A stretch of 64,000 bases of DNA from Mobula hypostoma. Taxonomy: Eukaryota. Below the pieces are notes generated by a model that saw only the letters and a program-made list of their open reading frames with translations, had not been told where the DNA came from and ran no database searches. The stretch lies in assembly GCF_963921235.1 (NCBI RefSeq), contig NC_086108.1, positions 12,214,001 through 12,278,000 of the forward strand, given 5' to 3'. The stretch's first letter is position 1. Every line of letters begins with the position of its first letter. Shown here one piece after another: positions 26,150 to 42,400 of the stretch. Both the position numbers and the translations under genes were made by a program.

Positions 26150-29100
26150 GAAGGAGAAGGAAGGTAGATGGCACGGCTGTGATGGTAAAAAATGAAATTA
26201 AATCCCATTAGAAAGAGGTGACATAGGGTCAAAAGGTATTGAATAGTTGTGGATAGAGCTAAGGAAGTGCAAGGGTAAAAAGACCCTGACTGCAGATAGA
26301 TACAGACCCCCAAACAGTAATAAGGTCGCAGCCTGCAGATTACAATGGGAGATAGAAAATGCATGCCAAGATGTTACAATCATCATGGGGGATTTCAAAA
26401 TGCAGGTAGATTGGGAAAATCAGGTTAGTGCTGGATTCCTAGAGAGGGAATTTCTAGAATGCCTGTGAGATGTTTTTTTGTCATAGAGCAGCTCATGGTT
26501 GAGCCTACTAGGGGATCAACTATTCTAGATTGGGTGCAATGATCTGGAATTAATGAGAGAACTTCAGATGAAAGAAACCTTAGGGTAAAGTGATCATAAT
26601 ATAATCAAATTCACCCTGAAATTTGAGAAGGAGAAGCTAAAGTCAGATGTACCACAGAGGCAAAATTCAAAAGGGTGAAGAAAGCAGTACTGAAGACTCT
26701 GTCTTTACAAGTGCATAGCATTCAGAATATGGTGGACGAACTCATGGTACAGTCGGAGATTGGTTGATATGACGTTGTGGGCATCACTGAGTCGTGGCTG
26801 AAAGAAGGCCATAGTTGAGAGCTTAATATCAAAGGATATAGTTTGTATCAAAAGGACACACAGGAAGACATAGGCGGTCGTGTGGGTCTATATGTTCAAT
26901 CTTTGTGGGTGGAGTTAAGAAATTGCAAGGGTCAAAAACCATTGTGGAAATCATATACACATTGGCCTCCAAATAGTAGCCAAGATGTGGGGTTGAGATT
27001 GCAAAGGGACACTAAAAAGGCATGTAATAAGGGTAATGACACAAATATAATGGGGAACGTCAATATGCAAGGGAATTGGGAAAATCAGGTTGGTGACGGA
27101 TTGCAAGAGAGGGAGTTTATTGAATGCTTACAGATGGCTTTAAGATGTGCTATCTTAGATTGGGTGTTGTGTAACCCAGATCTTATTAGGGAGCTTAATG
27201 CAAAGGAACCGTCAGGAGACAGTGATCTTAATATGATTGAATTCATTCTGCAATTTGAGAGGGAGAAGCACAAGTCACATATATCAGTATCGCAAAAGAA
27301 TAAAGGGAATTACAGAGACATGAGAGAGGAGCTTGCCCAGGTGGATTGGAGGAGGATTGTGGTGGGGATCATAAAAGATGAAGAAGTTCTCAAATGGCAG
27401 GGGTAGGCAACCGTGGCTGACAAAGGAAGTTAAGGACTGCATAAAAGCCCAGGAAAAAGCATATAAGGCAGTAAAAGTGAGTGGAAAGTTGGGATGATTG
27501 GGAAGCTTTTAAAATCCAATAAAAGGCAACTAAAAAGCTAAGGGAAAAGATAAAATATGAGGGCAAACTAGCCAAAAATATAAGGCAGGATACTAAAAGT
27601 ATTTTCAATTAGATAAAGAATAAAAAGGAGGTGAGAATTAATATTGGACCAGTGGAAAATTATGTTGGTGAGGTAGTAATTCTTTCAAACATCACTTGAT
27701 TCAGGCATAGTCACAAGGACTGAATGATTGCAAATATCATTCCTCTCTTTAAGAAAGGAGGAAGTCAAAAGAAAGAAAATGTTAGTCCAATTAGCCTAAT
27801 CTCCATGGTTGGGAAAGTGTTGGAGTCTGTTATTAAGGATGAGGCTTCAGGATACTTGGAGACTAATGAAAAAATAAGTCAAATCAGCTTGGTTCCTGTA
27901 AACGAAAATCTTGCCTGACAAATCTGTTAGTGTCCTTCGAGGAAGTAAAAAGCAGGGTGGACAAAGGAGATGTCATTTACTTGGATTTTCGAAAGGCATT
28001 TGATAAGATCCAACACGCGAGGCTGCTTAACAAGTTAAAATCCTATGGTGTTACAGGAAAGATACTGGCAGGGGATAGCGGAATGGCTGACAGGCAGGAG
28101 GCAGTGAGTGGGAATAAAAGGGACCATTTCTGGTTGCCTGCCAGTGACTCGTGGTGTTCCTCAGGGTCAGTATTGGGACCACTGCTTTTCACATTGTTTG
28201 TCAATGATTTGGATAATAGAATTGATGGCTTTGTGGCAAAGTTTGCAGATGATACAAAGATAGGTGGAGGGGTAGGTAGTGCTGAGGAAGCAATGTGGCT
28301 GCAGCAGGACTTATTGAATTGAATTGACTTTATTACTTTATGTCCAATTTAGTAATTTGTAATAAATAATATGTACAGTAGGACAGTCATTATAACATAG
28401 AAATACAATTGTATCAGCATGAATTAATCAGTCTGATGGCCTGGTGGAAGAAGCTGTCCCAGAAACTTTTCGTCCTGGCTTTTATACTGTGGCACTGCTT
28501 CCCGGATGGTAGCAGCTGGAGCAGTTTGGGGTTGGGGTGACTTGGGCCCCCAATGATCCTTTGGGCCCTTTTCACCCACCTGTCTTTGTAAATCTCCTGA
28601 ATAGCTGGAAGTTCACATCTACAGATGCGCCGGGTTGTCTGCACCACTCTCTGCACTGTACTGCCATTGAGGGAAGTTCCCATACCAGGCAGTGATGCAG
28701 TCAGTCAGGATGCTCTCAATTGTGTCCCTGTAGAAAGTTCTTAAGATATGGGGATCCATACCAAACTTCTTCAACCGTCTGTGGTGAAAGAGGCGCTGTT
28801 GTGCCTTTTTCACCACACAGCTGGTGTGTACAGACCTCAGTGATGTGGATGCTGAGGAACTTAAAGTTGTTCACCCTCTCAACCCCAGATCCATTGATGT
28901 CAATAGGGGGTATCCTGTTTTTATTCCTCCTGTAGTCCACAACCAGCTCTTTTGATTTTGTGTCATTGAGGAACAGGTTGTTTTCTTGACACCACTGTAT
29001 CAGGGTGATGACTTCTCTGTAGACTCCCTCATTATTATTTGAGATTAGGCCAATCAATGTAGTATTGTCAGCAAACTTAATTAGCAGATTGGAGCTGTGG

Positions 29101-30790
29101 GTGGTGACACAGTCATGGGTATACAGAGAGTAAAAGAGGGGACTTAGTACACAGCCCTGAGGGGCACCTGTGTTGAGGGTCAGAGGGGCAGAGGTGAGGG
29201 AGTCCACTCTTACCACCTACCGGCGATCTGACAGGAAGTCCAGGATCCCCCTGCACAAGGCAGGGTGAAGGCCAAGATCTCTGAGCTTCTTGTCAAGTCT
29301 GGAGGGTGTTATGATGTTGAATGCTGAACAATGTTGAATGTCCAAGAGCAGCATTCTCACAACAGCATACTTCTTCTCCAGATGTGTAAGGACAGTGTGT
29401 AGAGATGTGGCTATTGTGTCATCTGACGATCGGTTGTGTCGGTAGGCAAACTGTAGGGGGTCCAGTGTGGGTGGTAGCAAGCTGCAGATGTAGTACTTGA
29501 CCAGCACCTCAAAGCATTTGCTCATTATTGAGGTGAGTGTGACAGGACACCAGTCGTTCAGACATGTTACCTTGGTCTTTTTAGGTACAGGGACAATGGT
29601 GGATGTTTTGAAGCAGGATAGCACTCTGCACTGGGAAAGAGAGAGATTAAAAATGTCTGTAAGCACACCTGCCAGTTGTGCCACACACATCCTGAGTACC
29701 CATCCTGGGAGCAGTCTGGTCCCACAACCTTGCAACTGTCCACTCATTGGAAACACAAAGTTTGGCCTCAGAGATGACCAAGGTACAAGTTGCTTCAGCG
29801 GCTTTCCTCAGGGGCTGTGTTGGCAATATTGAACCAAGCGTAATAAAGCTCATCTTGGAGAGAGGCAGCGATGTTGGAAACACTATGCATTTAACTTTGA
29901 ACTCTGCGACAGACCTAACCATAAACTGCGTGTATTGTTGGTGGACATATTGGAAGAATAGGCAAAAAAGTGTCAGTGTTTGGAAATGCATGATAATGTA
30001 TTTTGGTAAAAGAAATAACAGTGCAGATTATTATCTAAATGGGGAAAAATTCAAACATCAGCGGTACAGAGGGACTTAGGAATCCTCGTGCAAGACTCCC
30101 AGAAGATTAATTTACAGGTTGAGTCTGTGGTAAAGAAGGCAAATGCAATCTTGGCATTTATTTCAAGGGGAATATAAGATAAAAGCAAGGAGATAATTCT
30201 GAGTCTTTATAAAACTCTAATCAGGTGGCACTTGGTATTGCAACAGTTTTGGGCCCCATATCTCGGAAACAATATGTTGTCATTGGAGAACGTCCAGAGG
30301 AAGTTCACGAGGATGATTCCGGGAATGAAGGGGTTAACATATGAGGAGCATCTGGCAGCTTTGGGTCTGTACTCACTGGAAATTAGAAAAATGCGTGAGG
30401 ATCTCATTAAAACCTATTGAAAGTTGAAAGGACTAGATAAGGTGGATGTGGAGAGAATGTTTCCTATCGTGGGGGTATCCAGAACTAAGGGGCAGGGGCT
30501 CAAAATTGAGGGGCGAACTTTTTGAATGGAGTTAAGGAGGAAATGTATTAGCTAGAGAGTAGTGAATCTGTGGAATGCTCTGCCGCAGAATCCAGCAGAG
30601 GCCAAGTCCATGGGTATATTTAAGGCAGAAGTTGATCATTTCCTGATCAGTCAGGGCATCAATGAAAATGGCAAGAAGGCAGGTGTATGGATTTGAATGG
30701 GATCCAGGGATCAGCCTTGATGGAATGGCGGAGCAGTCTCAATGGACTGAATGGCCTAATTCTGCTCCTACATTTTATGGTCTTATGGAT
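26150..30790 (+). mobile_element. Mosaic of CR1 fragments (two endonuclease segments, RT, 3' end) split by a Rex1-type insertion
   Basis: Endonuclease-like ORFs 26247..26468 and 26843..27406. RT 27930..28322 (YLDFRKAFDK, KFADDTKIGG). Resumes at ~29945 through 30232..30420 and the 3'UTR (atggtcttatgg). Confidence 0.85.
28314..29945 (-). mobile_element. Rex1/Babar-type LINE, ~1.6-kb RT-containing copy
   Basis: ORFs 29217..29756 (CFKTSTIVPVPKK, LDPLQFAYR) and 28716..29216 (NTGAPQGCVLSP, KFADNTT). (TTCAA)n tail seen as ttgaattgaattga at 28314. Confidence 0.92.
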
Positions 30791-31616
30791 TTATGTGTCA
30801 GTATTACAGTGGAGTAAAGGGAATTACAGAGGCATGTTGAGGAGTTAGCTAGAAATGATTGGAAGAGAACACTGGCAGGGATGACAGAGGAGCAGCAATG
30901 GCTGGAATTTCTGGAAGGCATCCCAAAGCGGAAGAAGTATTCTCAAGGTAAAATGGCACAACCATGGCTAACAGGGGAAGTCAAAGCCAACATAAAAACC
31001 AAAAAGAGGAGATATAATAGACCAAATATTAGTTAGAAGTCAGAGGATTGGGAAGATTTTGAATATCAACAGAAGGCAACTAAAAAAATCATTAAGAAGG
31101 TAAAGGTGGAATGTGACATTAAGGTAGCCAATAATATTAAAGGGGATACCAAATGTTTCTTCAGATACATAAAGTGTAAAAAAGAGGCAAAAGTGGATAT
31201 AAGATTGCAAAAAAAATGCTGGAGTGGTAGCAACGAGGGACAAGAAAATGGTGGATGAACTGAGTAAGTATTTTGCATCAGTCTTCACTGTTAAAAACAC
31301 TAGCAGTATGGTGGAAGTTCCAGGTGTCAGGGGTCATGAAGTGTGTGAAGTTACCATTACTAAGGAGAAGATTCTAAGGAATCTTAAAGATCTGAACATA
31401 GATAAGTCACCTGAACCAGATGGTGTATGCTTCAGGGTTCTGAAAGAAGTGCTGAAGAGATTTTTGGAGGCATTAATAATGATCTTTCAAAAATCTCTAG
31501 ATTCTGGAATGGTTCTGAAAGACTAGAACATTGCAAATGTCACTCCACTCTTCAAGAAGGGACTTGAAGGCACATGATAAAATAGGCCGTGGTCTGTATG
31601 GTTTCCTCAAGGGAAA

Positions 31617-31853
31617 TGTGGTAAACCATATATATATATATATATGTTGTAACTGGGTTAACTGTCTGGACATGCCCCTCTGCTGACTGCCCCTGTGGCT
31701 CCTCCCACAGAGTCCTGTATAAAGGTGTTTGCCTTGCCCCTCCCTCTCAGTCCGGGGGCAGACACTCACCGTGGAGGTCGTATTGTACAGCAAATAAAAG
31801 CCTTTCAGTATTTTCCCAAACCTCAGTCTTTTGGAGTTATTGAAGGTGCTTCA
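31617..31853 (+). repeat. 5' LTR
   Basis: Direct repeat of 34309-34538. TATAAA at 31718-31723, AATAAA at 31793-31798. Confidence 0.95.
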
Positions 31854-31879
31854 ATTTTATTCGCTGTACATTTTAAAGC

Positions 31880-32620
31880 ATGGAACATGCACTGAAACCA
31901 GACAAATTAGACCTGGATCCTCAGACACCTGAAGCTGGAAACACTTTCGAACTCTGGCTGGCTTGCTTCGAAGCGTATCTAGAGGAGATTAAAGCGACTG
32001 ACCCCGTAGCGAAGTGCAGAGTTCTACTTTCCAGGGTCAGTCCACGGGTCTATTCGCTGATCAGGGACCAGCCGAGCTACGATGGCGCGATGAACACACT
32101 GAAAAGACAATACCTGCGGCCGATAAACAGCGTCTATGCTTGGCACCGCTTAGCGACACGGCAACAGCAGCCCGGGGAATCGAATGATGAGTTTGTCCGG
32201 GCCCTACAGACACTCGTGCGAGCCTGCAATTGCCAGGAGCTGACGGCGGTGCAGCATGCAGAGCTCCTAGTGAGAGACGCCTTCGTCAAGGGGACCAGGT
32301 CAGTGTACGTGCGCCAGCGGCTGCTGGAAAAAGCCGATCGTACCCTAAGTTCGGCAATCGAGCTGGCTGATACGTTGGAGGCTGCTCTGCACAACTCTGA
32401 GGCTCTCCAGGCACGCGATCCCCCGATGGCCTCGTGGGCGCCGCAGACCCCGCAATCCACCGGCGAATCGACCTCGGCTGCCGTCAGTCGTAAGTCCGCA
32501 AAGTGCTACTTCTGCAGACTGGAGAAGCACCCCTGGAAACGCTGTCCGGCCCGACAAGCTACCTGCTCCAGCTGCGGAAAGAAGGGCCACTTCGCCAAGG
32601 TCTGTAAGTCAAAACTGTGA
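31880..32620 (+). CDS. gag: Gag-like protein with two zinc knuckles (retrotransposon)
   Basis: 246-aa ATG-initiated ORF 26 nt after the LTR. CYFCRLEKHPWKRC and CSSCGKKGHFAKVC. Confidence 0.88.
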   Translation: MEHALKPDKLDLDPQTPEAGNTFELWLACFEAYLEEIKATDPVAKCRVLLSRVSPRVYSLIRDQPSYDGAMNTLKRQYLRPINSVYAWHRLATRQQQPGESNDEFVRALQTLVRACNCQELTAVQHAELLVRDAFVKGTRSVYVRQRLLEKADRTLSSAIELADTLEAALHNSEALQARDPPMASWAPQTPQSTGESTSAAVSRKSAKCYFCRLEKHPWKRCPARQATCSSCGKKGHFAKVCKSKL

Positions 32621-32734
32621 GCAGGATCGAGCAGCGCCACGTGCGAGACGTGGGGGTCGCCATCTTCTCTGCACGCCGCCACCATGTGCGAGACATGGGG
32701 GCGGCCATCTTGGTTGGCGCCACCTTCCACCACC

Positions 32735-33060
32735 TCCGACTTTGCGCTGCCTGCTACCCTCAACCAGGCGGGAAAACCAGTGGCGTTCTTCTCCCGTACC
32801 CTTCAAGGCCCTGAAATTCGGCACTCTGCGGTAGAAAAAGAGGTCCAGGCTATAGTGGAAGCTATTAGGCACTGGAGGCACTATCTTGCCGGCCAAAGGT
32901 TCACCCTGCTAACTGACCAGCAGTCAGTCGCATTCATGTTTAATAATCAGTAGCGGAGCAAAATCAAAAATGATAAAATTCTGAGGTGGAGAATTGAACT
33001 TTCCACCTACAACTATGACATCATGTACAGGCCTGGGAAGCTCAACGAGCCCTCCGATGC
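32735..33060 (+). pseudogene. Ty3/Gypsy RNase H domain, N-terminally clipped, one stop
   Basis: SDFALPATLNQAGKPVAFFSRTL...SAVEKEVQAIVEAIRHWRHYL...FTLLTDQQSV, TAG at 32951-32953, then KILRWRIELSTYNYDIMYRPG. Confidence 0.88.
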
Positions 33061-34240
33061 CCTATCCCGGGGAACCTGCGCCAGCACGCAGATCGACCAG
33101 CTAAACACCCTACATGTAGACTTTTGCCACCCGGGGGTCACCCGGCTTTTCTACTTCATGAAAGCCCGGAACCTGCCTTACTCCCTTGAGGAGATCAGGA
33201 CGATGACCAGGGAATGCCAAGTCTGCGAAGAGTGCAAACCACACTTCTACCAACCCGAAAAGGCACAACTAATCAAGGCTACCCGCCCCTTTGAGCGACT
33301 GAGTGTTAACTTTAAGGGCCCCCTTCCCTCCACCGATCGCAATGTGTACTTTCTTAACGTTATCGATGAGTACTCACGGTTCCCCTTCGCCATCACCTGC
33401 CCCGACACCACTACGACGTCAGTTATAAAAGCCCTGCGCAAGCTCTTCACTCTGTTCGGATACCCATGCTATATCCACAGTGACAGAGGGTCCTCGTTTA
33501 CGAGTGACGAGCTGTGCCAATACCTGCTGGCTTGGGGAATTACAACTAGTAGGACCACGAGCTATAATCCCCGGGGGAATGGACAGGTGGAGAAGGAGAA
33601 TGGCACAGTGTGGAAAGCCACACTCTTAGCCCTCAGGTCAAAGGGACTGCTGCTCTCCCGCTGGCAGGAGGTCCTTCCCGAGGCACTCCACTCCATCCGC
33701 TCCCTGTTATGCACAGCCACCAATGCCACCCCTCAAGAGCAGCTCTTTTCTTTTCCCAGAAAATCGACCACTGGAACCACCCTACCAACTTGGCTGATGT
33801 CCCCGGGGCCAGTGCTGCTCCGGAAACATACGAGGAGCAATAAATACTCCCAGATAGTCGAGAGGGTTCACTTACTTCATGCGAACTCTCAGTATGCCTA
33901 CGTGGTTTTACCTGATGGGCGGGAGGACATGGTCTCCATCCGCGACCTGGCGCCTGCAGGAGCACCAGGCCCCTACCCTGAACACTCCGTGGTGACTATA
34001 GACCCTGTACCCACTGATGTATGTACCCACGAGACACCGCGCACTCCAAGCCCTACACAGACGCCACACGACACTCCCATACTGGGCGCAATGCACACGC
34101 ACGAGGGATTAACAATGCCTAACGTGCTGGTACCTCAAGTCAGGCCGGAGCCAGCACAACCGCCATCGCTGACGCAATCACCACCGGTGCTACGTAGATC
34201 ACAGCGACGGACTCGACCGCCTGATAGACTTAACCTGTAA
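33023..34240 (+). CDS. Retrotransposon integrase region (HHCC + DDE core; first Asp replaced by Asn)
   Basis: 405-aa open frame: LHVDFCHPG...CQVCEEC; RLSVNFKGP; HSDRGSSF; NGQVEKEN; Pro-rich tail ending RRSQRRTRPPDRLNL. Confidence 0.9.
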   Translation: MYRPGKLNEPSDALSRGTCASTQIDQLNTLHVDFCHPGVTRLFYFMKARNLPYSLEEIRTMTRECQVCEECKPHFYQPEKAQLIKATRPFERLSVNFKGPLPSTDRNVYFLNVIDEYSRFPFAITCPDTTTTSVIKALRKLFTLFGYPCYIHSDRGSSFTSDELCQYLLAWGITTSRTTSYNPRGNGQVEKENGTVWKATLLALRSKGLLLSRWQEVLPEALHSIRSLLCTATNATPQEQLFSFPRKSTTGTTLPTWLMSPGPVLLRKHTRSNKYSQIVERVHLLHANSQYAYVVLPDGREDMVSIRDLAPAGAPGPYPEHSVVTIDPVPTDVCTHETPRTPSPTQTPHDTPILGAMHTHEGLTMPNVLVPQVRPEPAQPPSLTQSPPVLRRSQRRTRPPDRLNL

Positions 34241-34308
34241 ATATACTTCTTGTAAATATTGTCAGTCACTTCAGCCCGCGGGACTCTTTTAAAAAAAGGA
34301 GGGGTGAA

Positions 34309-34538
34309 TGTGGTAAACCATGTATATATGTTGTAACTGGGTTACCTGTCTGGACACACCCCTCTGCTGACTGCCCCTGTGGCTCCTCCCACAGAGTCCT
34401 GTATAAAGGTGTTCGCCTTGCCCCTCCCCCTCAGTCCGGGGGCAGACACTCACTGTGGAGGTCGTATTGTACAGCGAATAAAAGCCTTTCAGTATTTTAC
34501 CAAACCTCAGTCTTTTGGAGTAATTGAAGGTGCTTCCA
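34309..34538 (+). repeat. 3' LTR
   Basis: Direct repeat of the 5' LTR, with about 10 substitutions plus a (TA)n length difference, counted by eye. Confidence 0.95.
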
Positions 34539-35785
34539 GAAAATCTTGCCTGACAAATCTGTTGGAATTCTTTGAAGCAATAACAAGCAGCATAGACAAA
34601 GGAAAATTGGTTGATGTTGAATACTTGGATTTTCAAAAGGCTTTTGACAAGATGCTTTGACATGAGGCTGCTTATCAAATTTCAAGCCCTTTGTATTACA
34701 GAAAATATTTTAGCATGGATAAAGCAGTGGCTGATTGGCAGGAGGCCAAGAGTGGGAATAAATAGAGCCTTTTTTATTTGGCTGCTGGTGACTAGTGGTG
34801 TTCTTCAGGGGTCTGTGTTGGGACCAATTCTTTTTACGTTATATGGCAATGATTTGGATGATGGAATTGATGGCTTTGTTGCAAAGTTTGCAGACAATAC
34901 GAAGATAGGTGGAGGGGCATGTAGTTTTGAGGAAATAGGGAGGCTATTGAAAGATGAAGACAGAGAATGGGCAAAGAGTGTCAGATAGAATAGTGTCAGG
35001 ATGTGTATGGTTATGCACGTAGGTAGAAGAAATGAAAGAGATGACTATATGGAGAGAAAATACAAAACTCTGAGCCACAAAGGGATTTAGGTGTCCTTGT
35101 GCAGGATTCCCTAAAGGTTAATTTGCAGGTTGAGTCTGTGGTGAGGAAGGCAAATGTGATGTAGCATTTATTTTAAAAGGACTAGAATATAAAAGTAAGG
35201 ATATAATGCTGAGACTTCATAAAGCACCAGTGACGCCTCACATGGAGTATTGTGTGCAGTTATCTTAGAAAAGGTGTGCTGAAACTGGAGAGGGCTCAAA
35301 AGAGATTCACAAAAATGATTCCAGGATTAAATGGCCTGTCCTAAGAATAGCGTTTGATGGCTCTGGACCTGTATTCACTGGAATTTAGAAGAATGAAGGG
35401 TGACCTAGTTGAATGGTGAAAGGCCTTGATAGAGTGGATGTGAAGAGGATGCTTCCAATGGTGGGAGGGTCTAAGACCAGAGGACACAACCACAGAATAG
35501 AAGGTTGTCCTTTTAAAACAGAGATGAGGAGGAATTTCTTTAGCCAGAGAATGGTGAATCTGTGGAATTTGTTGCCACAGGCAGTGATGGAGGTCAAGTC
35601 TTTAAATATATTCAAGGCAGAGGTTGATAGATCCTTCATTGATCAAGGCATGAAGGGATACAGTGGGAAGTCATGAGATTGGGTCTGAGAGGGAAAATGG
35701 ATCAGCCATGATGAGATGGTGGAACAGACTCAATGTCAAATGGCCTAATTTGGTTCCAATATCTTATGGCCGTTTGCTTTCAGAA

Positions 35786-36250: not shown

Positions 36251-36438
36251 AGACAGTGAGAGGGACTCACCCTGACAGAAACGGAATGTGTTGGGAATGC
36301 TGTGTTTTGTGTACTAAACCTTATCCTGGAACCAACACTCCGTCCCCAATCCACCCACCTCCTGAGTTTGCAGTATCTAACCATGGCCGGCTAGAAGCCT
36401 GGAGAAGTGCTACACTTGCTAATGGGAAAGGTCAGTCA

Positions 36439-39400
36439 TCCCAGTTGTACAAATTACCAGCTGAATGAGAATCTGGCTGTATGAGGTTCCAGTTATACAA
36501 GATTCCAGTTGTAGAAGATTCCTGTTGTATAATATATCAGTTGTACAAGATTCCAGTGGTACTAGATGCCAGTTGTACAAGATCACAGTTGAACAGGATT
36601 CCAGTTGTATGAGGTTCCAGTTGTGTGAGATTCCAGTTACACAAGATTCCACTTGTAGAAGATTCCAGTTGTATAATATACCAGCTGTACCAGATTCCGG
36701 TGGTACAAGATACCAGTTGTACAAGATTCCAGTGGTACTAAATGCCATTTTTACAAGATCCCAGTTGACAAGATTCTAGTTTTATGAGGTTCTAGTTTTA
36801 CAAAATTACGAGTATAAGAATCCAGTTGTCAAGAATTCCAGTTGTACAAGATTTAGGCTGTATGAAATACCAATTCTACAAGATTCCAGTTGTAGGAAGT
36901 TCCAGTTGTACAAGAATCATGTTGAACGAGTATCCAGTTGTACAACATTCTGGTTGTACAATATTCCAGTTGTATGATGTTCCAGTTGTATAAGGTTCCT
37001 ACTGTACAAGATTCAGGTTGTATGAACCAGCAGTTGGACAAGATTTCATTTGTAGGAAGTTCTGGTGTACAAGATTCCATTTGTAAAGGATTCCAATTGT
37101 ACAACATTATGTTGTACAAGATACATAATTTATGATGTACCAGATGTATAGGAATCCAGCTGACAATTTTTCAATTGTTTGAGTTTCAAGTTGTACAAGA
37201 TCCCAGTTGTATAAAGTTCAGTTGGCACAGGATTCCAGTTACACAGATTTCAGTCATACAAGATCCCAGCTGTGTGAGGTTGCAGTTGTACAAGATTCCA
37301 ATTGCACAATATTCCAGTTGTACAGGATTCCTGTTGTACAAGATTCAAGTTGTAAGAGGTTCCAGTTGAACAACATGCTAGTTGAACAAGCTTCTAGTTG
37401 TAAGAGATTCCAGTTGCTCAAGATACCAGTTGTACAAGATTCCATTTGTGTAAGATTCCATTTGTGTAAGATTCCAGTTGTACAAAATTCAAGATATACA
37501 AGATTCCAGTTATACAAATTTCGAGTTGTATGAAGTTCCAGTTGTACACGACTCCACTTGTACATGATTCTAGTTGTACACAATTCCATTTGTAGAAGAT
37601 CCTGGTTGTAGAAGATGCTGATCGTAGAAAGTTCCGAAGTTGCATAAGAGTCCAGTTGTATGGGGATCCGGTTGTCCAATATTCTAGTTGTTAAACATTC
37701 CTGTTTTACAAGATTCCAGTTGAACGAGATACTAGATGTACATGACTACACTTATACTCAATTCCAGTTGTACAAGATTCTAGTTGCACAAGATTCCAGT
37801 GTATGGTGTTTCAGTTGTACAAGATTCCAGTTGTATGAAGTTGCAATTGTATAAGTTTCAGATTGTACAAATGTCCAGATGTACAAGATCCCCATTGTAC
37901 AGATTGCAGTTGCATGAAATTCCTGCTGTACGATATTCCAGTCGAATGAGTTTCTGGTTGTATAAGATTCTAATTGTATGAGGATCCTGTTGTGCAAGAA
38001 TCCACCTCTACAAGATTCCACTTGCACAAGATTCTAGATGTAGAAGATTCCAGTTGCATGAGTTCTGGATGTACAAAATTCCAGTTCTACAAGATTTCAG
38101 TGGTATGAAGTTCCTATTTTGCAAGATTCCAGTTACACAACATACCAGCTGTACACGACTTCACTTTTGCACAATACAAGTTGTACAGGATTCCAGTCTA
38201 CAAGATTCTTGTTGCAGAAGAGTCCAATTGTACAAGGTTCCAGTCTTATGTGGTTCCAGTTGTAAAAAAAAATTGTACAGGAATCGAGTTGTATAATTTA
38301 ACTATTACACAAGATTCAAGTTGTATGAAGTACCACTTGTACAAGATTCCAGTTCCATGAATTTCCAGTTGCACAAAATTCCAGATGTACAAGATTTGAG
38401 TTGTGCAAGGTTCCATTTGTATGAGTTTCCATTTGTGCAAGATACCAATTGCACAAGATTCCAACTGCACAAGATACCAATTGCACAATGTTCCAGTTCT
38501 TTGAAGTTCCAGTCGAACAAGATTCCAGTTGCCTGAGGATCCTGATGTACAAGCTTCTGGTTGTACAAAATTCTTGTTGAAGATTCCAGTTTCACAAGAT
38601 TCCAGTTGTAGAAGATTCCATTTATATGAAGTTCCCATTGTACAATTTTATAGTTGTATGAGATTCTGATTGTATGAGCTTCCTGTTGTATAAAGTTCCC
38701 TTTCTACATGAGTCCAGTGTATGACATCCCACATGTACAAGATTACAGTTGGATAAGATTCCAGTTCAAAAAAATTCTGCTCATACTGGTTTCCATTTGT
38801 CCAAGGTCCCAGTTATATGAAGTTCTCATTGGACAAGATTCCAGTTGTATGAAGTCCCAATTCTATGATATTCCAGTTGGACAAGATTCCAGTTGTTTGA
38901 GCTCCCAGTTGCAAAAGCTTCTAGTTGTACAAAATTCCAATTGTACAAGATTCCAGTTGTACAATATACCAGTTGTTCACGATTCCAGTTGTGCAAGATT
39001 TCAATTGTACAGCATTCCAGTTGTATGAAGACCCGGTTGGACAGGTTTCAGTTATATGAAGTTATGGCTGTGCAAGATTGTGGTTGTACAAGATTTCTGT
39101 TGAATAAGATTAAATTTGTATAAAGTTCCAGTTGTACAAGATTCCAGTTGCATGTTGTTCCAGCTGTACAAAATTCCAATAGAGTGAGATTCCAATTGTA
39201 CAAGATTCTAGTTGTATGAAGTTCCAGTTGCAGAAGATGATAGTTATATGAAGATCCCTTTAAATAAGATTTCATTTGTATGAAGTTACAGTTGTATGAA
39301 ATTACATTTGTACAAGATTGCAGTTGTATAATATTCCAATTGTTACAGGATACTAGTTCTGCATGATTCAAATTGTACGGGATTTCAGTTGTACAGCATT

Positions 39401-42400
39401 CCATTTGTATGAAGTCTGGTTGTACAAGATTGGAGATGTAGAAGATTCTAGTTCTATGAAGTTCTTTTGTACAATATTACAGTTGTATCAAGCTCCAGCT
39501 TGACAAGATTCCAGTTGTACAAAATTCCAGCTGCATGAGGGCCTGGTTGTAAAAGATTCTAATTGTACAAGATTCTATTTCTACAATATTCCAGTTGTAC
39601 AAAATTACAGATGTACAAGGTTCCAGTTGAATGAGGTTCCAGTTGTACAAAACTCCAGCTGCATGAAGGCCAGTTTGTAAAAGATTCCAGTTGAATGAGG
39701 TTCCAGTTATACAAAACTCCAGCTGCATGAAGGCCAGTTTGTAAAAGATTCCAGTTGAATGAGGTTCCAGTTGTACAAGATTCTATTTCTACAGTATTAC
39801 AGATGTACAAGGTTCCACTTGTATGAGTCATACTAGATTCTGGTTGTACAAATTTCCAGTTTTACAAGATTGTTGTGGTACAAGATTTCTGCAGTAAAGT
39901 TTCAAGTTGTACAAGATTGTGGTTATATGAGGTTCTAGTTATACAAGGTTCCAGCTTTATGAGATTCTGGTTGTACAAGATTCCAATTGTTTGAGTTTCC
40001 AATTGTAGGAGATTCCAGTTATATGAGGTTCCGGTTGTACAAGATACTGGTTGTAAGAGGTTCCAGTTGAACAGGTTTCTATTTAGAAAAAATTCCAGTT
40101 GGGCAAGAATCCAGTTGTAAGAAGTTCCAATTGAACAAGACTCCAGATGTATGAGATTCAGGTTCTACAAGATTGCAGTTGTACAGGATTTCAGGTGTAC
40201 AAGATTACAGTTATATACGATTCAGTTTATGCAAAAATTCCAGTTGTACAAGATTTCAGTTGTAAGAATTACCCTTTGCACAATGATTCCAGATGCACAA
40301 GATTCCATTTTGTATGAAGTTCCAGCTGTGCAATACACTAGCTGCACAAGATTCCAGTTCTATGAATGTCCAATTGTAGAAGATTCCACTTGTGTAAGAT
40401 TCCAGATGTAGAATATTCAGGTTGTACGAGAATCCAGTTCTACAAGATTACATTTGTACAACATTTCAGTCATACAAGATTCTAGTTGTACAAGATACAA
40501 GTTGTACCAAATCCCTGTTGTAAAGATTCCATATAAAGAAGATTCCAGATGTAGAGGATTCTATTTGTATGAAGTTCCAGTTGTACAAATTACCACTTGG
40601 ACACGATTCCTGTTGTGTGAGGTTCCAATCATACAAGATCCTAGTAGTATGAGGTTGTGACTGTTCAAGATTCCAGTTGAAGAAGGTTCTGGTGCTAAAG
40701 GATTCCAGTTGTACAATATTCCAATTGAACGAGATTTCAGTTGCACAATATTCCAGCTGTATGGGATACCTTTTATGCACAATTCCAATTGTACACAATT
40801 TAAATTGCTCTGGAATTCAGTTGTGCAGATTTCTATTTATATGAAGTTCTGATTCCAAGAGATTCCGGTTGTATGAAGTTGCAGTTGTCAAGATTCCACT
40901 GTACAAGATTGCTGTTGTACATGCCTCCAGTTGTTCAAGACTCCAGCTGTACTAGATTCAGTTAAACAAGATTTCATTTGTACAATATTCTAATTGTACG
41001 AGGTTGTTGTAGTCCATTTATCCAGTTGTAAGAGTTACCAGTTGTACACGATTCTAGTTGCTTGAAGTTCCAATCGTATAAGATCCTAATTGCATAAAAA
41101 TCACTTTGGACAAGATTTCAGTTGTATGAGGTCCCAGAAATGCAAGATTTCAGTTGAATGATGTTCTGGTTCTACAAAATTCCAGTTGTACAATATTCCA
41201 GTTGTACGAGATTCAAGTTGTGCGGTGTACTAGTTGTACACAATTCCAATTGTACAATTCAGTTGTACAGATTTCTATTTGTATGAAGTTCTGGTTGCAC
41301 AAGGTTCCAGTTGTATGAAGTTCTAGTTGTAAAAGTTTCCAGTTGTACAATATCACAGTCGTACCAAGTTCCAGTTCTACAGGATTCCAGTTGTACAAAT
41401 TCAAGTTATATGAATTTCCAGTTGGACAAGATTTCAGATGTACAAGATTCCAGTAGTAGAATATACCAGCTGTATGAAGTGCAAATTCTAGAAGATTCCA
41501 GTTATATGAATCGCCAATTTTTCAAGATTCCAGAGTACAAATTCCCATTGTACAAGACACCTGCTCTACAAAATTTCAGCTGTACCAGATTCCAGTTATA
41601 TGAGATTCTGGTTGTAAAATATTGCAGTTGTATGAGGTTGTGATTGTCCATTGTTACTGTTGTACAAGATTTCAGTTCTACAAGATTCCAGTTGTACAAA
41701 GCTCTGATTCTGGTTGTACAAGATTGTAGTTCCTCAAGATTCTGGTTGTATGAAATTCCAATTATACAAAATTCTACTTGTACAAGATTCCAGATGTAGA
41801 CGATTCTAGTTGCAAAAGGTTCTATTTCTAAAAGATAAAATGTCTACGACATTTCACTTGTACAATTTCTGGCTGTACGAGATTCAAGTTGTATCAAATT
41901 CCTATTGTACAAGATTCCAGATGTACAAGATTTCAGATGTACAAGGTTCTATTGGTGTGAAGTTCTAGTTGTATAAGATTCCAGTTTTACAAGACACCAG
42001 TTGTACAAATTCAAGTTGTATGAAGTTCCAGTTGTACACATTTCCAGCTGCATGAGGATCCACTTGTACAAGATTCCAGTTGTACAAATTACCAGTTGCA
42101 CATGAATCCTGTTGTGTAAGGTTCCAGTCATACAGGATCCTAGTTGTATGAGGTTCTGGTTGTTCAAGATTCCAGTTGAATGGGACACTCACAACACGCT
42201 GGAGGAACTCAGCAGGTCGGGCAGCATCTGTGGAAATGATCAGTCAACATTTCGGGCCGGAACCCTTTGCCAGGACTGTAGAGGGAAGGGGCAGAGGCCC
42301 TATAAAGAAGGTGGGGGGGTGGGAAGGAGAAGGCTGGTAGGTTCCAGGTGAAAAACCAGTAAGGGGAAAGATAAAGGGGTGGGGGAGGGGAAGCAGGGAG

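What the first reader, a model, noticed from the sequence alone, without database searches (positions are those of the whole stretch)
31784..31870. LTR retrotransposon with no tRNA primer site; the primer-site sequence is complementary to its own LTR (candidate self-priming)
Seen: after the 5' LTR end (...GCTTCA, 31853) there is no TGG-type tRNA PBS. Instead 31855-31870 (TTTTATTCGCTGTACA) is the exact reverse complement of TGTACAGCGAATAAAA in the 3' LTR (34468-34483, 16/16) and matches the 5' LTR copy at 15/16 (31784-31799, a CpG-type G>A). The 3' end of the LTR segment would pair one nucleotide from the U5 end and point into U5, the correct geometry for minus-strand priming. The loop can also pair (cctttcagta with tattgaagg, ccaaa with tttgg), giving one long hairpin. 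Known: Tf1/sushi-group elements self-prime from the first nucleotides of their own RNA after RNase H cleavage. Inference: this element self-primes too, but the putative primer lies ~60 nt below the TATA box and includes the poly(A) signal, unlike the Tf1 layout. I cannot tell whether this has been described for this lineage.
Basis: partly seen in the sequence, partly recalled or inferred. Interest (0 to 1): 0.8.

Follow-up and report, generated by a model that had tools for sequence, protein, structure and literature searches.

The report
Self-priming signature in an animal gypsy retrotransposon lineage
This jumping gene and its distant relatives carry, where a borrowed tRNA would normally bind, a short sequence that pairs with the element's own repeat, so the lineage probably starts copying itself with its own RNA.

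Summary
Window 31855-31870 is the exact reverse complement of 34468-34483 in the 3' LTR. It matches 31784-31799 in the 5' LTR at 15 of 16. It starts one base after the LTR end (31853), and no TGG-type primer site follows.

The element is a 2.9 kb internally deleted copy of a ~4.4 kb Ty3/gypsy family (gag-PR-RT-RNase H-IN, one ORF, no chromodomain). The family has thousands of copies in this genome. Of 43 other copies, 26 keep all 16 pairs.

The decisive result comes from six distant relatives in metagenome contigs (41-57% protein identity). These are every related locus that holds an LTR-gag junction. Each has 10-17 nt, starting 1-3 nt after its LTR, that complement an internal segment of its own LTR. 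The sequences differ between families. The first 10 pairs form in 7 of 7 families, with 2-4 pair types at positions 3-10.

Self-priming as in Tf1 is the best reading. It is not proven, because neither the RNA start nor the cleavage was seen. My paper searches tie self-priming to Tf1/sushi chromoviruses and some copia groups, not to this lineage. Three key older papers were not held.

The parts
31613..31616 (+). Target-site duplication, left copy (GAAA). The host sequence is a CR1/L2-like LINE reverse-transcriptase frame that continues after 34542.
   Evidence: The family normally makes 5-bp duplications. Here only 4 bases match.
31617..31853 (+). 5' LTR (TGTGG...GCTTCA), 237 nt
   Evidence: (D6, 95% to the 3' LTR). 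Contigs diverge at 31853 (table 7).
31718..31723 (+). TATAAA box. An initiator-like CTCAGTC has its A at 31749, 31 nt downstream. This is the predicted, not mapped, RNA start.
   Evidence: Read from the sequence. TATAAA lies at -66 from the primer segment. The start site is an inference.
31784..31799 (+). Putative self-primer segment in the 5' LTR (TGTACAGCAAATAAAA). It is 15 of 16 complementary to 31855-31870. The family majority has G at 31792.
31793..31798 (+). AATAAA hexamer, a likely poly(A) signal, inside the primer segment
   Evidence: Its use as a signal is not shown.
31800..31853 (+). Rest of R/U5. It forms inner stems (GCCTTTCAGTA with TATTGAAGGTGC; CCAAA with TTTGG) between the two arms.
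31854..31854 (+). Single unpaired A between the LTR end and the primer-binding site. It would be the first base copied.
   Evidence: The same A is present in 5 of 7 families.
31855..31870 (+). Primer-binding site complementary to the element's own LTR (TTTTATTCGCTGTACA)
   Evidence: (I14).
31880..32620 (+). gag ORF, 246 aa, with two CCHC zinc knuckles
32731..32732 (+). Internal deletion junction. About 1.5 kb (protease, most of RT, start of RNase H) is missing relative to full copies.
   Evidence: window 31683-32730 aligns to L037 505-1726, and 32733-34540 aligns to L037 3235-5027.
32684..32953 (+). Remnant of the RNase H domain
   Evidence: PF17917, E 1.1e-18.
33023..34240 (+). Integrase ORF, 405 aa, no chromodomain
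   Evidence: PF00665, E 4.1e-17; no other family matched.
34291..34304 (+). Polypurine tract (AAAAAAAGGAGGGG), 4 nt before the 3' LTR
34309..34538 (+). 3' LTR, 230 nt
34468..34483 (+). Unmutated copy of the primer segment in the 3' LTR, 16 of 16 complementary to 31855-31870
   Evidence: I14.
34539..34542 (+). Target-site duplication, right copy (GAAA)

Best explanation
This is a decayed, internally deleted copy of a compact (~4.4 kb, single gag-pol ORF) non-chromoviral Ty3/gypsy retrotransposon. Its lineage primes minus-strand DNA synthesis with its own RNA instead of a tRNA.

Shown here: in the genomic RNA, a 10-17 nt stretch of the LTR pairs with the sequence that begins 1-3 nt after the LTR. 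This closes a 47-94 nt hairpin that holds the rest of R/U5. In five of the seven family representatives folded, a small stem-loop sits directly 3' of the primer stretch.

Inferred by analogy with Tf1/Tf2: the element's RT/RNase H cuts the RNA at the 3' end of the paired LTR stretch, which always ends ...AA. The new 3'-OH is extended across the single spacer base and U5 towards the cut. This gives a short strong-stop DNA (about 55 nt in this family). That DNA transfers to the 3' R through the roughly 20 nt between the cut and the poly(A) site.

Also inferred: because plus-strand strong-stop DNA would copy the primer, the primer-binding site would be rewritten from the LTR in each cycle. This would explain why the two always match within a family and differ between families.

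In this family the predicted TATA/initiator puts the RNA start about 35 nt before the primer stretch. The primer would then be a ~51-nt 5' piece, not the first 11 nt as in Tf1. The RNA start was not mapped, and a Tf1-like start at 31784 is not excluded.
For: (1) Exact 16-nt complement one base after the LTR end. The majority form among 43 further copies is a perfect 16 of 16. Twenty-six of 43 keep 16 pairs (G-U included), 14 keep 15 and 3 keep 14.

(2) Lineage test. Of 22 related metagenome loci, six hold an LTR-gag junction: L051, L052, L053, L054, L063, L066 (41-57% protein identity). All six have an exact complement of 17, 14, 14, 15, 10 and 13 nt between the leader and an internal LTR segment. 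Leader shuffles reaching this: 0 of 2000 for five loci and 21 of 2000 for L063.

(3) Covariation. Anchored at the junction, pairs 1-10 form in 7 of 7 families, with 2-4 different pair types at positions 3-10. L052 and L053 differ by a C-G to U-A double change. Cross-pairing one family's segment with another's site gives 3-9 of 10 pairs, except between the sister loci L052 and L053, which give 9-10.

(4) The helix ends at the same place in all seven. The next bases never pair, and the site starts TT right after CA plus 1-3 nt.

(5) The hairpins fold better than shuffles in all seven, z = -2.2 to -7.6.

(6) There is no room for another primer site. The site ends 0-19 nt before the gag ATG, and in L051 it overlaps the ATG by one base.

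(7) The lineage is or was active. Three of the 14 full copies fetched have an uninterrupted gag-pol frame of about 1290-1340 aa, LTR pairs reach 98-100% identity, and the LTR-leader query found 2890 first-look candidates.

(8) The mechanism has a proven precedent in Tf1/Tf2 (passages of PMC4600332 and PMC5341516).
Against: There is no direct evidence for priming. No RNA start, poly(A) site, cleaved primer or strong-stop DNA was seen; the public runs were contigs only.

Covariation proves a selected helix, not its use as a primer.

If the RNA starts at the predicted initiator, the primer is internal and the R left for strand transfer is short, about 20 nt here and at most 20 nt in L066. This is workable by analogy with short retroviral R regions (recalled) but is untested.

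TATA-like motifs show no conserved spacing to the segment across families.

The LTR ends of L054 and L063 (single collapsed LTR in circularly permuted contigs) and of L052 (3' LTR cut by the contig end) are inferred from the CA, not from two complete LTR copies.

Elements filed under the Mag lineage in mosquitoes are reported with tRNA-Leu/Ser sites (passages of PMC3286476). If this lineage belongs there, it departs from them.
Confidence: 0.72

Rival explanations
1. The helix is real and selected but serves another purpose, and an unidentified host RNA is the primer. Possible purposes are hiding the 5' copy of the poly(A) signal (the partner strand exists only at the 5' end of the RNA), packaging, dimerisation or control of translation.
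For: In 3 of 7 families the LTR arm ends in AATAAA or ATTAAA, so pairing would mask that signal only in the 5' copy. Covariation proves the pairing, not the priming. The site lies 0-19 nt from the gag ATG, so the helix could also affect translation.
Against: Four of 7 families have no canonical hexamer in the arm, and L053 has its AATAAA in the loop. A primer must anneal next to the LTR end, and that place is fully taken by the self-complementary sequence. In L051 nothing else fits before the ATG. The post-LTR sequences share only a T-rich start, so no single host RNA fits all seven. Masking and priming are not exclusive; masking may be a second function.
Confidence: 0.14
2. A host tRNA, tRNA half or tRNA fragment complementary to 31854-31872 is the primer, and the match to the LTR is secondary.
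For: Half-tRNA and internal-tRNA priming exist in copia-type elements (passages of PMC6317226).
Against: There is no TGG start. The sequence after the LTR differs in every family and always follows that family's own LTR. Twenty tRNA genes of this genome give at most 6 nt of complement to the leader, but they cover only three kinds: Lys-UUU, Cys-GCA and Thr-CGU. No tRNA gene lies in the window. The tRNA sample is small, so this test alone is weak.
Confidence: 0.03
3. Chance complementarity in AT-rich sequence.
For: The arms are A/T-rich at the junction end, and L063 has only 10 nt (21 of 2000 shuffles reach this).
Against: Seven of 7 families show it at the same place. No shuffle reaches it in five of the six metagenome loci (0 of 2000 each). 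Real flanking DNA gives 5-8 nt.
Confidence: 0.01

Closest known systems
Tf1, Tf2 (Schizosaccharomyces pombe) and Tj1 (S. japonicus): self-primed Ty3/gypsy elements
   Same: They have no tRNA site. A stretch of the element's own 5' RNA pairs with the site just after U5, and RT/RNase H cuts it to make the primer (passages of PMC4600332 and PMC5341516). A stem-loop between primer and site is needed in Tf1 (title of Lin and Levin 1998, as cited in PMC4600332). A comparable stem-loop sits next to the primer stretch here in five of the seven family representatives folded.
   Different: Tf1-type elements are fungal chromoviruses. This lineage has no chromodomain and lives in animals. In Tf1 the primer is the very start of the mRNA (11 nt, recalled). 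Here the predicted start lies about 35 nt upstream, the duplex is 10-17 nt, and in this family it contains AATAAA. None of this is experimentally shown here.
Vertebrate Tf1/sushi group (sushi-ichi and relatives; Butler et al. 2001)
   Same: These are vertebrate Ty3/gypsy elements for which self-priming was proposed (stated in PMC6317226 and PMC4600332).
   Different: The paper itself is not held, so its layouts could not be compared. Sushi elements are chromoviruses. Neither this family nor any of the 120 listed relatives carries PF00385. Placement on a tree was not done.
Mag lineage of Ty3/gypsy (Mag, Jule, SURL; A, B and C clades)
   Same: Compact size, single gag-pol ORF, short LTRs, no chromodomain and a wide animal range. 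The LTRs of L051-L053 end in AYAACA, as in the Mag A and Mag C motifs of PMC3601003 Table 3.
   Different: Mag-lineage elements of Culex are reported with tRNA-Leu, tRNA-Ser or tRNA-Arg sites (PMC3286476). The window family's LTR ends (TGTGG...GCTTCA) do not fit the Mag motifs. Membership was not tested by phylogeny. The Jule paper is not held.
Predicted self-primers outside Tf1/sushi: plant Tcn1 clade and TAR (copia) lineage; diatom copia, moss and fungal elements noted earlier in this scan
   Same: The same sequence signature: at least 10 nt complementary to the 5' LTR, starting 0-5 nt after it (method passage of PMC6317226; scan notes).
   Different: They belong to different superfamilies or clades and different hosts. 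None is an animal non-chromoviral gypsy element.

Membership tests
Ty3/gypsy LTR retrotransposon (Metaviridae) | Two LTRs with TG...CA ends, flanked by a short target-site duplication | tested here: met
   The LTR is TGTGG...GCTTCA. Full copies have 5-bp duplications; the window copy shares 4 bases.
Ty3/gypsy LTR retrotransposon (Metaviridae) | Domain order gag-PR-RT-RNase H-IN, with RT closest to Ty3 | tested here: met
   (PF13975, PF00078, PF17917, PF00665, in that order, in L031); the best solved relative is the Ty3 Gag-Pol polyprotein, E 1e-54.
Self-priming elements (Tf1 type) | No tRNA-type site; the sequence next to U5 is complementary to the element's own LTR/5' RNA | tested here: met
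   Seen in 7 of 7 families, with covariation.
Self-priming elements (Tf1 type) | The complementary stretch is the first bases of the mRNA | not testable with these tools
   No RNA reads were available; only contigs could be laid. The TATAAA at -66 and an initiator-like motif suggest a start about 35 nt upstream in this family (inference). No conserved spacing is seen in the relatives.
Self-priming elements (Tf1 type) | RNase H-dependent cut of the RNA duplex, and strong-stop DNA joined to element RNA | not testable with these tools
   This needs bench work.
Tf1/sushi group (chromoviruses) | Chromodomain at the C-terminus of integrase | tested here: not met
   The window integrase and L031 give no PF00385 match. 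None of the 120 listed relatives carries it.
Tf1/sushi group (chromoviruses) | Placement inside the group on an RT/RNase H/IN tree | not tested
   No named reference sequences could be obtained.
Mag lineage | Compact element, single gag-pol ORF, short LTRs, no chromodomain | tested here: met
   elements of 4.1-4.6 kb, LTRs about 230 nt, one frame of about 1290-1340 aa.
Mag lineage | LTR end motifs (Mag A: TGTTRKR...AYAACA; Mag C: TGTNATRT...AYANAACA; PMC3601003 Table 3) | tested here: inconclusive
   L053 (TGTTGTG...ACAACA), L052 and L051 (..ATAACA) fit. The window family (TGTGGTA...GCTTCA) and L066 do not.
Mag lineage | Site complementary to tRNA-Ser or tRNA-Leu, as reported for mosquito Mag elements | tested here: not met
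Mag lineage | Placement on a pol tree with Mag, Jule or SURL | not tested

The most novel reading that the evidence does not exclude
A widespread animal lineage of non-chromoviral Ty3/gypsy elements has given up tRNA priming altogether. Named relatives come from rays, sharks, a sea anemone and a whipworm, and hundreds of ~4 kb environmental contigs also belong to it. The primer would be cut from inside R at a conserved ...UAAA/UUAA-3' end that abuts a small stem-loop, not taken from the RNA's first bases. In several families the same helix would hide the 5' copy of the poly(A) signal, so one structure would solve both priming and 5'/3' poly(A) choice. The primer-binding site would be rewritten from the LTR at each cycle.
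Probability: 0.35. Interest if true: 0.72.

Novelty: new variant of a known kind. Interest (0 to 1): 0.6.

Why it matters
Self-priming has been proven only in fission-yeast Tf1-type elements. In the papers I could search it is treated as a trait of the Tf1/sushi chromoviruses and a few plant copia groups.

A second, unrelated-looking animal gypsy lineage with the same solution would show one of two things. Either tRNA-independent priming arose more than once, or it is older and more widespread than thought.

It would also give a natural set of covarying primer/site pairs for studying how RT/RNase H picks its cleavage site.

Independence from tRNA also matters for host control. Small RNAs derived from tRNA 3' ends target tRNA-primed elements (abstract of PMC7472051, seen in a search listing). 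Self-primed elements would escape that route.

On the practical side, annotation pipelines that require a tRNA-type site will miss or misjudge these very abundant elements.

Tried and rejected
RNA evidence. The look-up of sequencing runs listed no RNA holder. The four runs laid are contigs and show no starts, ends or poly(A) tails. They only confirmed the LTR end at 31853 and that 31792 is G elsewhere. One run (X9) has T instead of A at 31787 in all 21 contigs. The paired position 31867 is not among the 40 differences shown (266 were not shown), so whether it compensates is unknown.

Within-genome search for diverged families. Searches with the LTR, with a distant homologue P0002 (after one search gave no answer) and with 14 further full copies returned only the same family with the same 16-mers. 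A PF17917 scan listed 150 other gypsy hits, which I did not follow.

Viral contigs gave no relative.

Sixteen of the 22 metagenome loci have no LTR-gag junction, either because the contig ends or because no LTR pair was found. They could not be tested.

Rfam: no match in 31500-32000. ARAGORN: no tRNA in the window.

The tRNA test covers only three isoacceptors.

Within-family double changes. Two of 43 copies (L005, L025) carry matching changes on both arms. Both are CpG transitions, and about 0.5 such doubles are expected by chance, so this is not significant.

Clade naming. The protein atlas and source names give no clade.

Papers not held: Lin and Levin 1997, Levin 1995, Volff 2001 (Jule), Butler 2001 and Wilhelm 2001.

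Earlier scan notes: nothing on this DNA.

Full report
WHAT IS THERE

The window holds a 2.9 kb LTR element at 31617-34538. Its 5' LTR is 31617-31853 and its 3' LTR is 34309-34538, 95% alike. It sits inside the reverse-transcriptase frame of a CR1/L2-like LINE, flanked by GAAA on both sides.

It encodes a gag with two CCHC knuckles (31880-32620), a remnant of RNase H and a 405-aa integrase. Compared with full copies it lacks about 1.5 kb: protease, most of RT and the start of RNase H. The junction is at 32731/32732.

Full copies in the same genome are 4.1-4.6 kb with LTRs of about 230 nt. They have one gag-PR-RT-RNase H-IN frame. Three of the 14 full copies fetched have an uninterrupted frame of about 1290-1340 aa.

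The LTR ends were fixed from 12-14 copies. The flanks change right before TGTGG and right after GCTTCA, with 5-bp target duplications. The best solved relative is the Ty3 Gag-Pol polyprotein (E 1e-54). No chromodomain was found in the window integrase, in L031 or in any of the 120 listed relatives.

THE OBSERVATION

It is confirmed as written.
- 31855-31870 is the exact reverse complement of 34468-34483 (I14).
- It is 15 of 16 complementary to 31784-31799. The odd base, 31792 A, is a later change: 40 of 43 other copies have G there, and so do reads of four public runs.
- One base (A, 31854) separates the LTR from the 16-mer.
- Only 26 nt lie between the LTR and the gag ATG, and no TGG-type site is among them.
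For an unmutated copy the energy is -31.7 kcal/mol, z = -6.68, reached by 0 of 200 shuffles.

Among 43 other copies with a 5' LTR-leader junction, 26 keep 16 pairs (G-U included), 14 keep 15 and 3 keep 14. A subfamily has G instead of A at the last position of the site, which still pairs as G-U.

As a real-sequence control, the 30 nt after the 3' LTR of 12 copies give longest complements of only 5-8 nt to the LTR.

THE TEST THAT DECIDES: RELATIVES

All copies fetched from this genome belong to one family with the same 16-mers, so they cannot show covariation.

A protein search found close homologues in rays and sharks (77-94% in pol). It also found 58-66% homologues in a sea anemone, in Trichuris and in hundreds of ~4 kb environmental contigs.

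A scan of metagenome contigs with a four-sequence alignment gave 22 related loci. Six of them hold an LTR-gag junction:
- L051, L053 and L066 have both LTRs.
- L052 has its 3' LTR cut by the contig end.
- L054 and L063 are circularly permuted contigs with one collapsed LTR.
- The other 16 loci lack the junction.

In all six, the sequence that begins 1-3 nt after the LTR's terminal CA is the exact complement of an internal LTR segment. The lengths are 17 nt (L051), 14 (L052), 14 (L053), 15 (L054), 10 (L063) and 13 (L066). Shuffling the 48-nt leader reached these lengths in 0 of 2000 trials for five loci and in 21 of 2000 for L063.

The sequences differ between families. I counted from the junction (3' end of the LTR segment, 5' end of the site):
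- Positions 1-10 pair in 7 of 7 families.
- Positions 1-2 are always A-U.
- Positions 3-10 show 2-4 different pair types each.
- L052 and L053 differ by a C-G to U-A double change at position 9.
- One family's segment against another family's site gives 3-9 of 10 pairs, against 10 of 10 for the family's own site. The only exception is the sister pair L052 and L053, which give 9-10.

The base after the segment and the base before the site never pair, so the helix ends at the same point everywhere. All seven hairpins fold better than shuffles, z = -2.2 to -7.6. In five of the seven family representatives folded (L037 for the window family, L051, L052, L053, L066), a small stem of the type (G/A)CCU...AGG(U/C) sits directly 3' of the segment in the minimum-energy fold. 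In L063 it appears only in the centroid fold, and L054 has none.

HOW IT MOST LIKELY WORKS

The priming site of an LTR element is by definition the sequence next to U5. Here that place is filled, in every family, by a complement of the element's own LTR. In L051 the site even runs into the ATG. The most economical reading is self-priming as shown for Tf1 and Tf2. There, a stretch of the 5' RNA folds back on the site, and RT/RNase H cuts it free and extends it (passages of PMC4600332 and PMC5341516).

For this family that gives the following steps:
1. A cut after 31799.
2. The first base copied is 31854.
3. A strong-stop DNA of about 55 nt forms.
4. It transfers through the part of R between the cut and the poly(A) site.

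All of these steps are inferred. The single base left beyond the CA fits the usual trimming by integrase.

If, as in tRNA-primed elements, the plus strand copies the primer, the site would be rewritten from the LTR in each cycle. This would account for perfect matching within families and free drift between them. Two of 43 copies carry matching double changes, but both are CpG transitions and the count is not above chance.

WHERE THE RNA STARTS IS OPEN

In this family a TATAAA (31718-31723) is followed 31 nt later by an initiator-like CTCAGTC. This predicts a start near 31749, 35 nt before the segment. The primer would then be internal, unlike Tf1.

The relatives show no conserved TATA spacing, and in some (L054, L063) AT-rich motifs lie about 15-30 nt before the segment. 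No RNA reads were available.

The overlap with a poly(A) hexamer holds for 3 of 7 families (AATAAA, AATAAA, ATTAAA). L053 has its AATAAA in the loop. Masking of the 5' poly(A) signal may be an added benefit in some families. It cannot be the conserved function.

RIVALS

- A helix with another role plus an unknown primer is possible but leaves the priming site unexplained (0.14).
- A host tRNA or fragment is disfavoured by the family-specific sequences. Twenty tRNA genes of three kinds in this genome give at most 6 nt of complement, which is a weak test on its own. I put this at 0.03.
- Chance is excluded.

COMPARISON WITH WHAT IS KNOWN

In the papers I could search, self-priming is described for the following:
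- The Tf1/sushi group of yeast and vertebrates, the plant Tcn1 clade and the copia TAR lineage (passages of PMC6317226).
- 'Some chromoviruses', in the wording of PMC3601003.

Searches that combined self-priming with LTR retrotransposon, primer binding site, Tf1 or sushi, and with Mag and gypsy, found no paper that ties it to a non-chromoviral animal gypsy lineage. Separate searches on Jule, SURL and the Mag lineage with primer binding site found none either. The three papers most likely to bear on this (Butler 2001, Volff 2001, Lin and Levin 1997) are not held, so prior description cannot be excluded.

By size, single frame, short LTRs, lack of a chromodomain and the AYAACA LTR ends of L051-L053, the lineage looks like the Mag lineage (PMC3601003 Table 3). 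I did not build a tree, and mosquito Mag elements are reported with tRNA sites (PMC3286476).

Earlier notes of this scan report the same kind of signature in diatom copia, moss and fungal elements, but none on this DNA or in animals.

VERDICT

It is a known mechanism in what appears to be a new and very widespread host lineage, possibly with a different primer layout. Proof needs RNA-end mapping and the primer-DNA junction.

Noticed in passing
window 31248-31616 and 34539-34988: The element interrupts the reverse-transcriptase frame of a CR1/L2-like LINE (...GFLKGK | SCLTNLLEFFE...). Further diverged copies of the same LINE lie at 28019-30787 and 34664-35776.
   Followed up: partly
window 36378-39951: There is a long satellite-like array with a 16-nt period (unit near AGTTGTACAAGATTCC). 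Copies are 60-80% alike, and the array has gaps (D1-D5).
   Followed up: no
window 32637-32711; L037 1453-1707: The stretch between gag and protease holds a 45-nt coding tandem repeat whose copy number varies between copies: two units in the window, more in L037, L038, L041 and L042. A ray homologue, P0001, has a much longer repeat insert at the same place.
   Followed up: no
window 31857 (run X2, table 7): One contig leaves the sequence 4 nt after the LTR end. It continues with the reverse complement of the polypurine-tract region (34277-34306), giving a head-to-head junction of U5 and PPT. This could be an aberrant cDNA or auto-integration product, or an assembly artefact.
   Followed up: no
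(proteins P0030, P0040, P0060, P0082 and others): Pol of this ray-type family is 58-66% identical to elements of a sea anemone, a whipworm and hundreds of ~4 kb environmental contigs. Some of those contigs are filed under bacterial bins (Rhizobiales, 'bacterium'). Such high identity across phyla suggests strong constraint or horizontal spread. The bacterial labels are probably mis-binned eukaryotic DNA.
   Followed up: no
G000 copies L037, L044, L046; L052, L053: Some copies have an uninterrupted gag-pol frame and LTR pairs of 98-100% identity. The family, or its relatives in the metagenome samples, was therefore active recently.
   Followed up: partly
window 34305-34308: Four bases (TGAA) lie between the polypurine tract and the first base of the 3' LTR in the window and in most full copies. 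This is more than the usual 0-2 and implies longer trimming at the left end of the cDNA.
   Followed up: no
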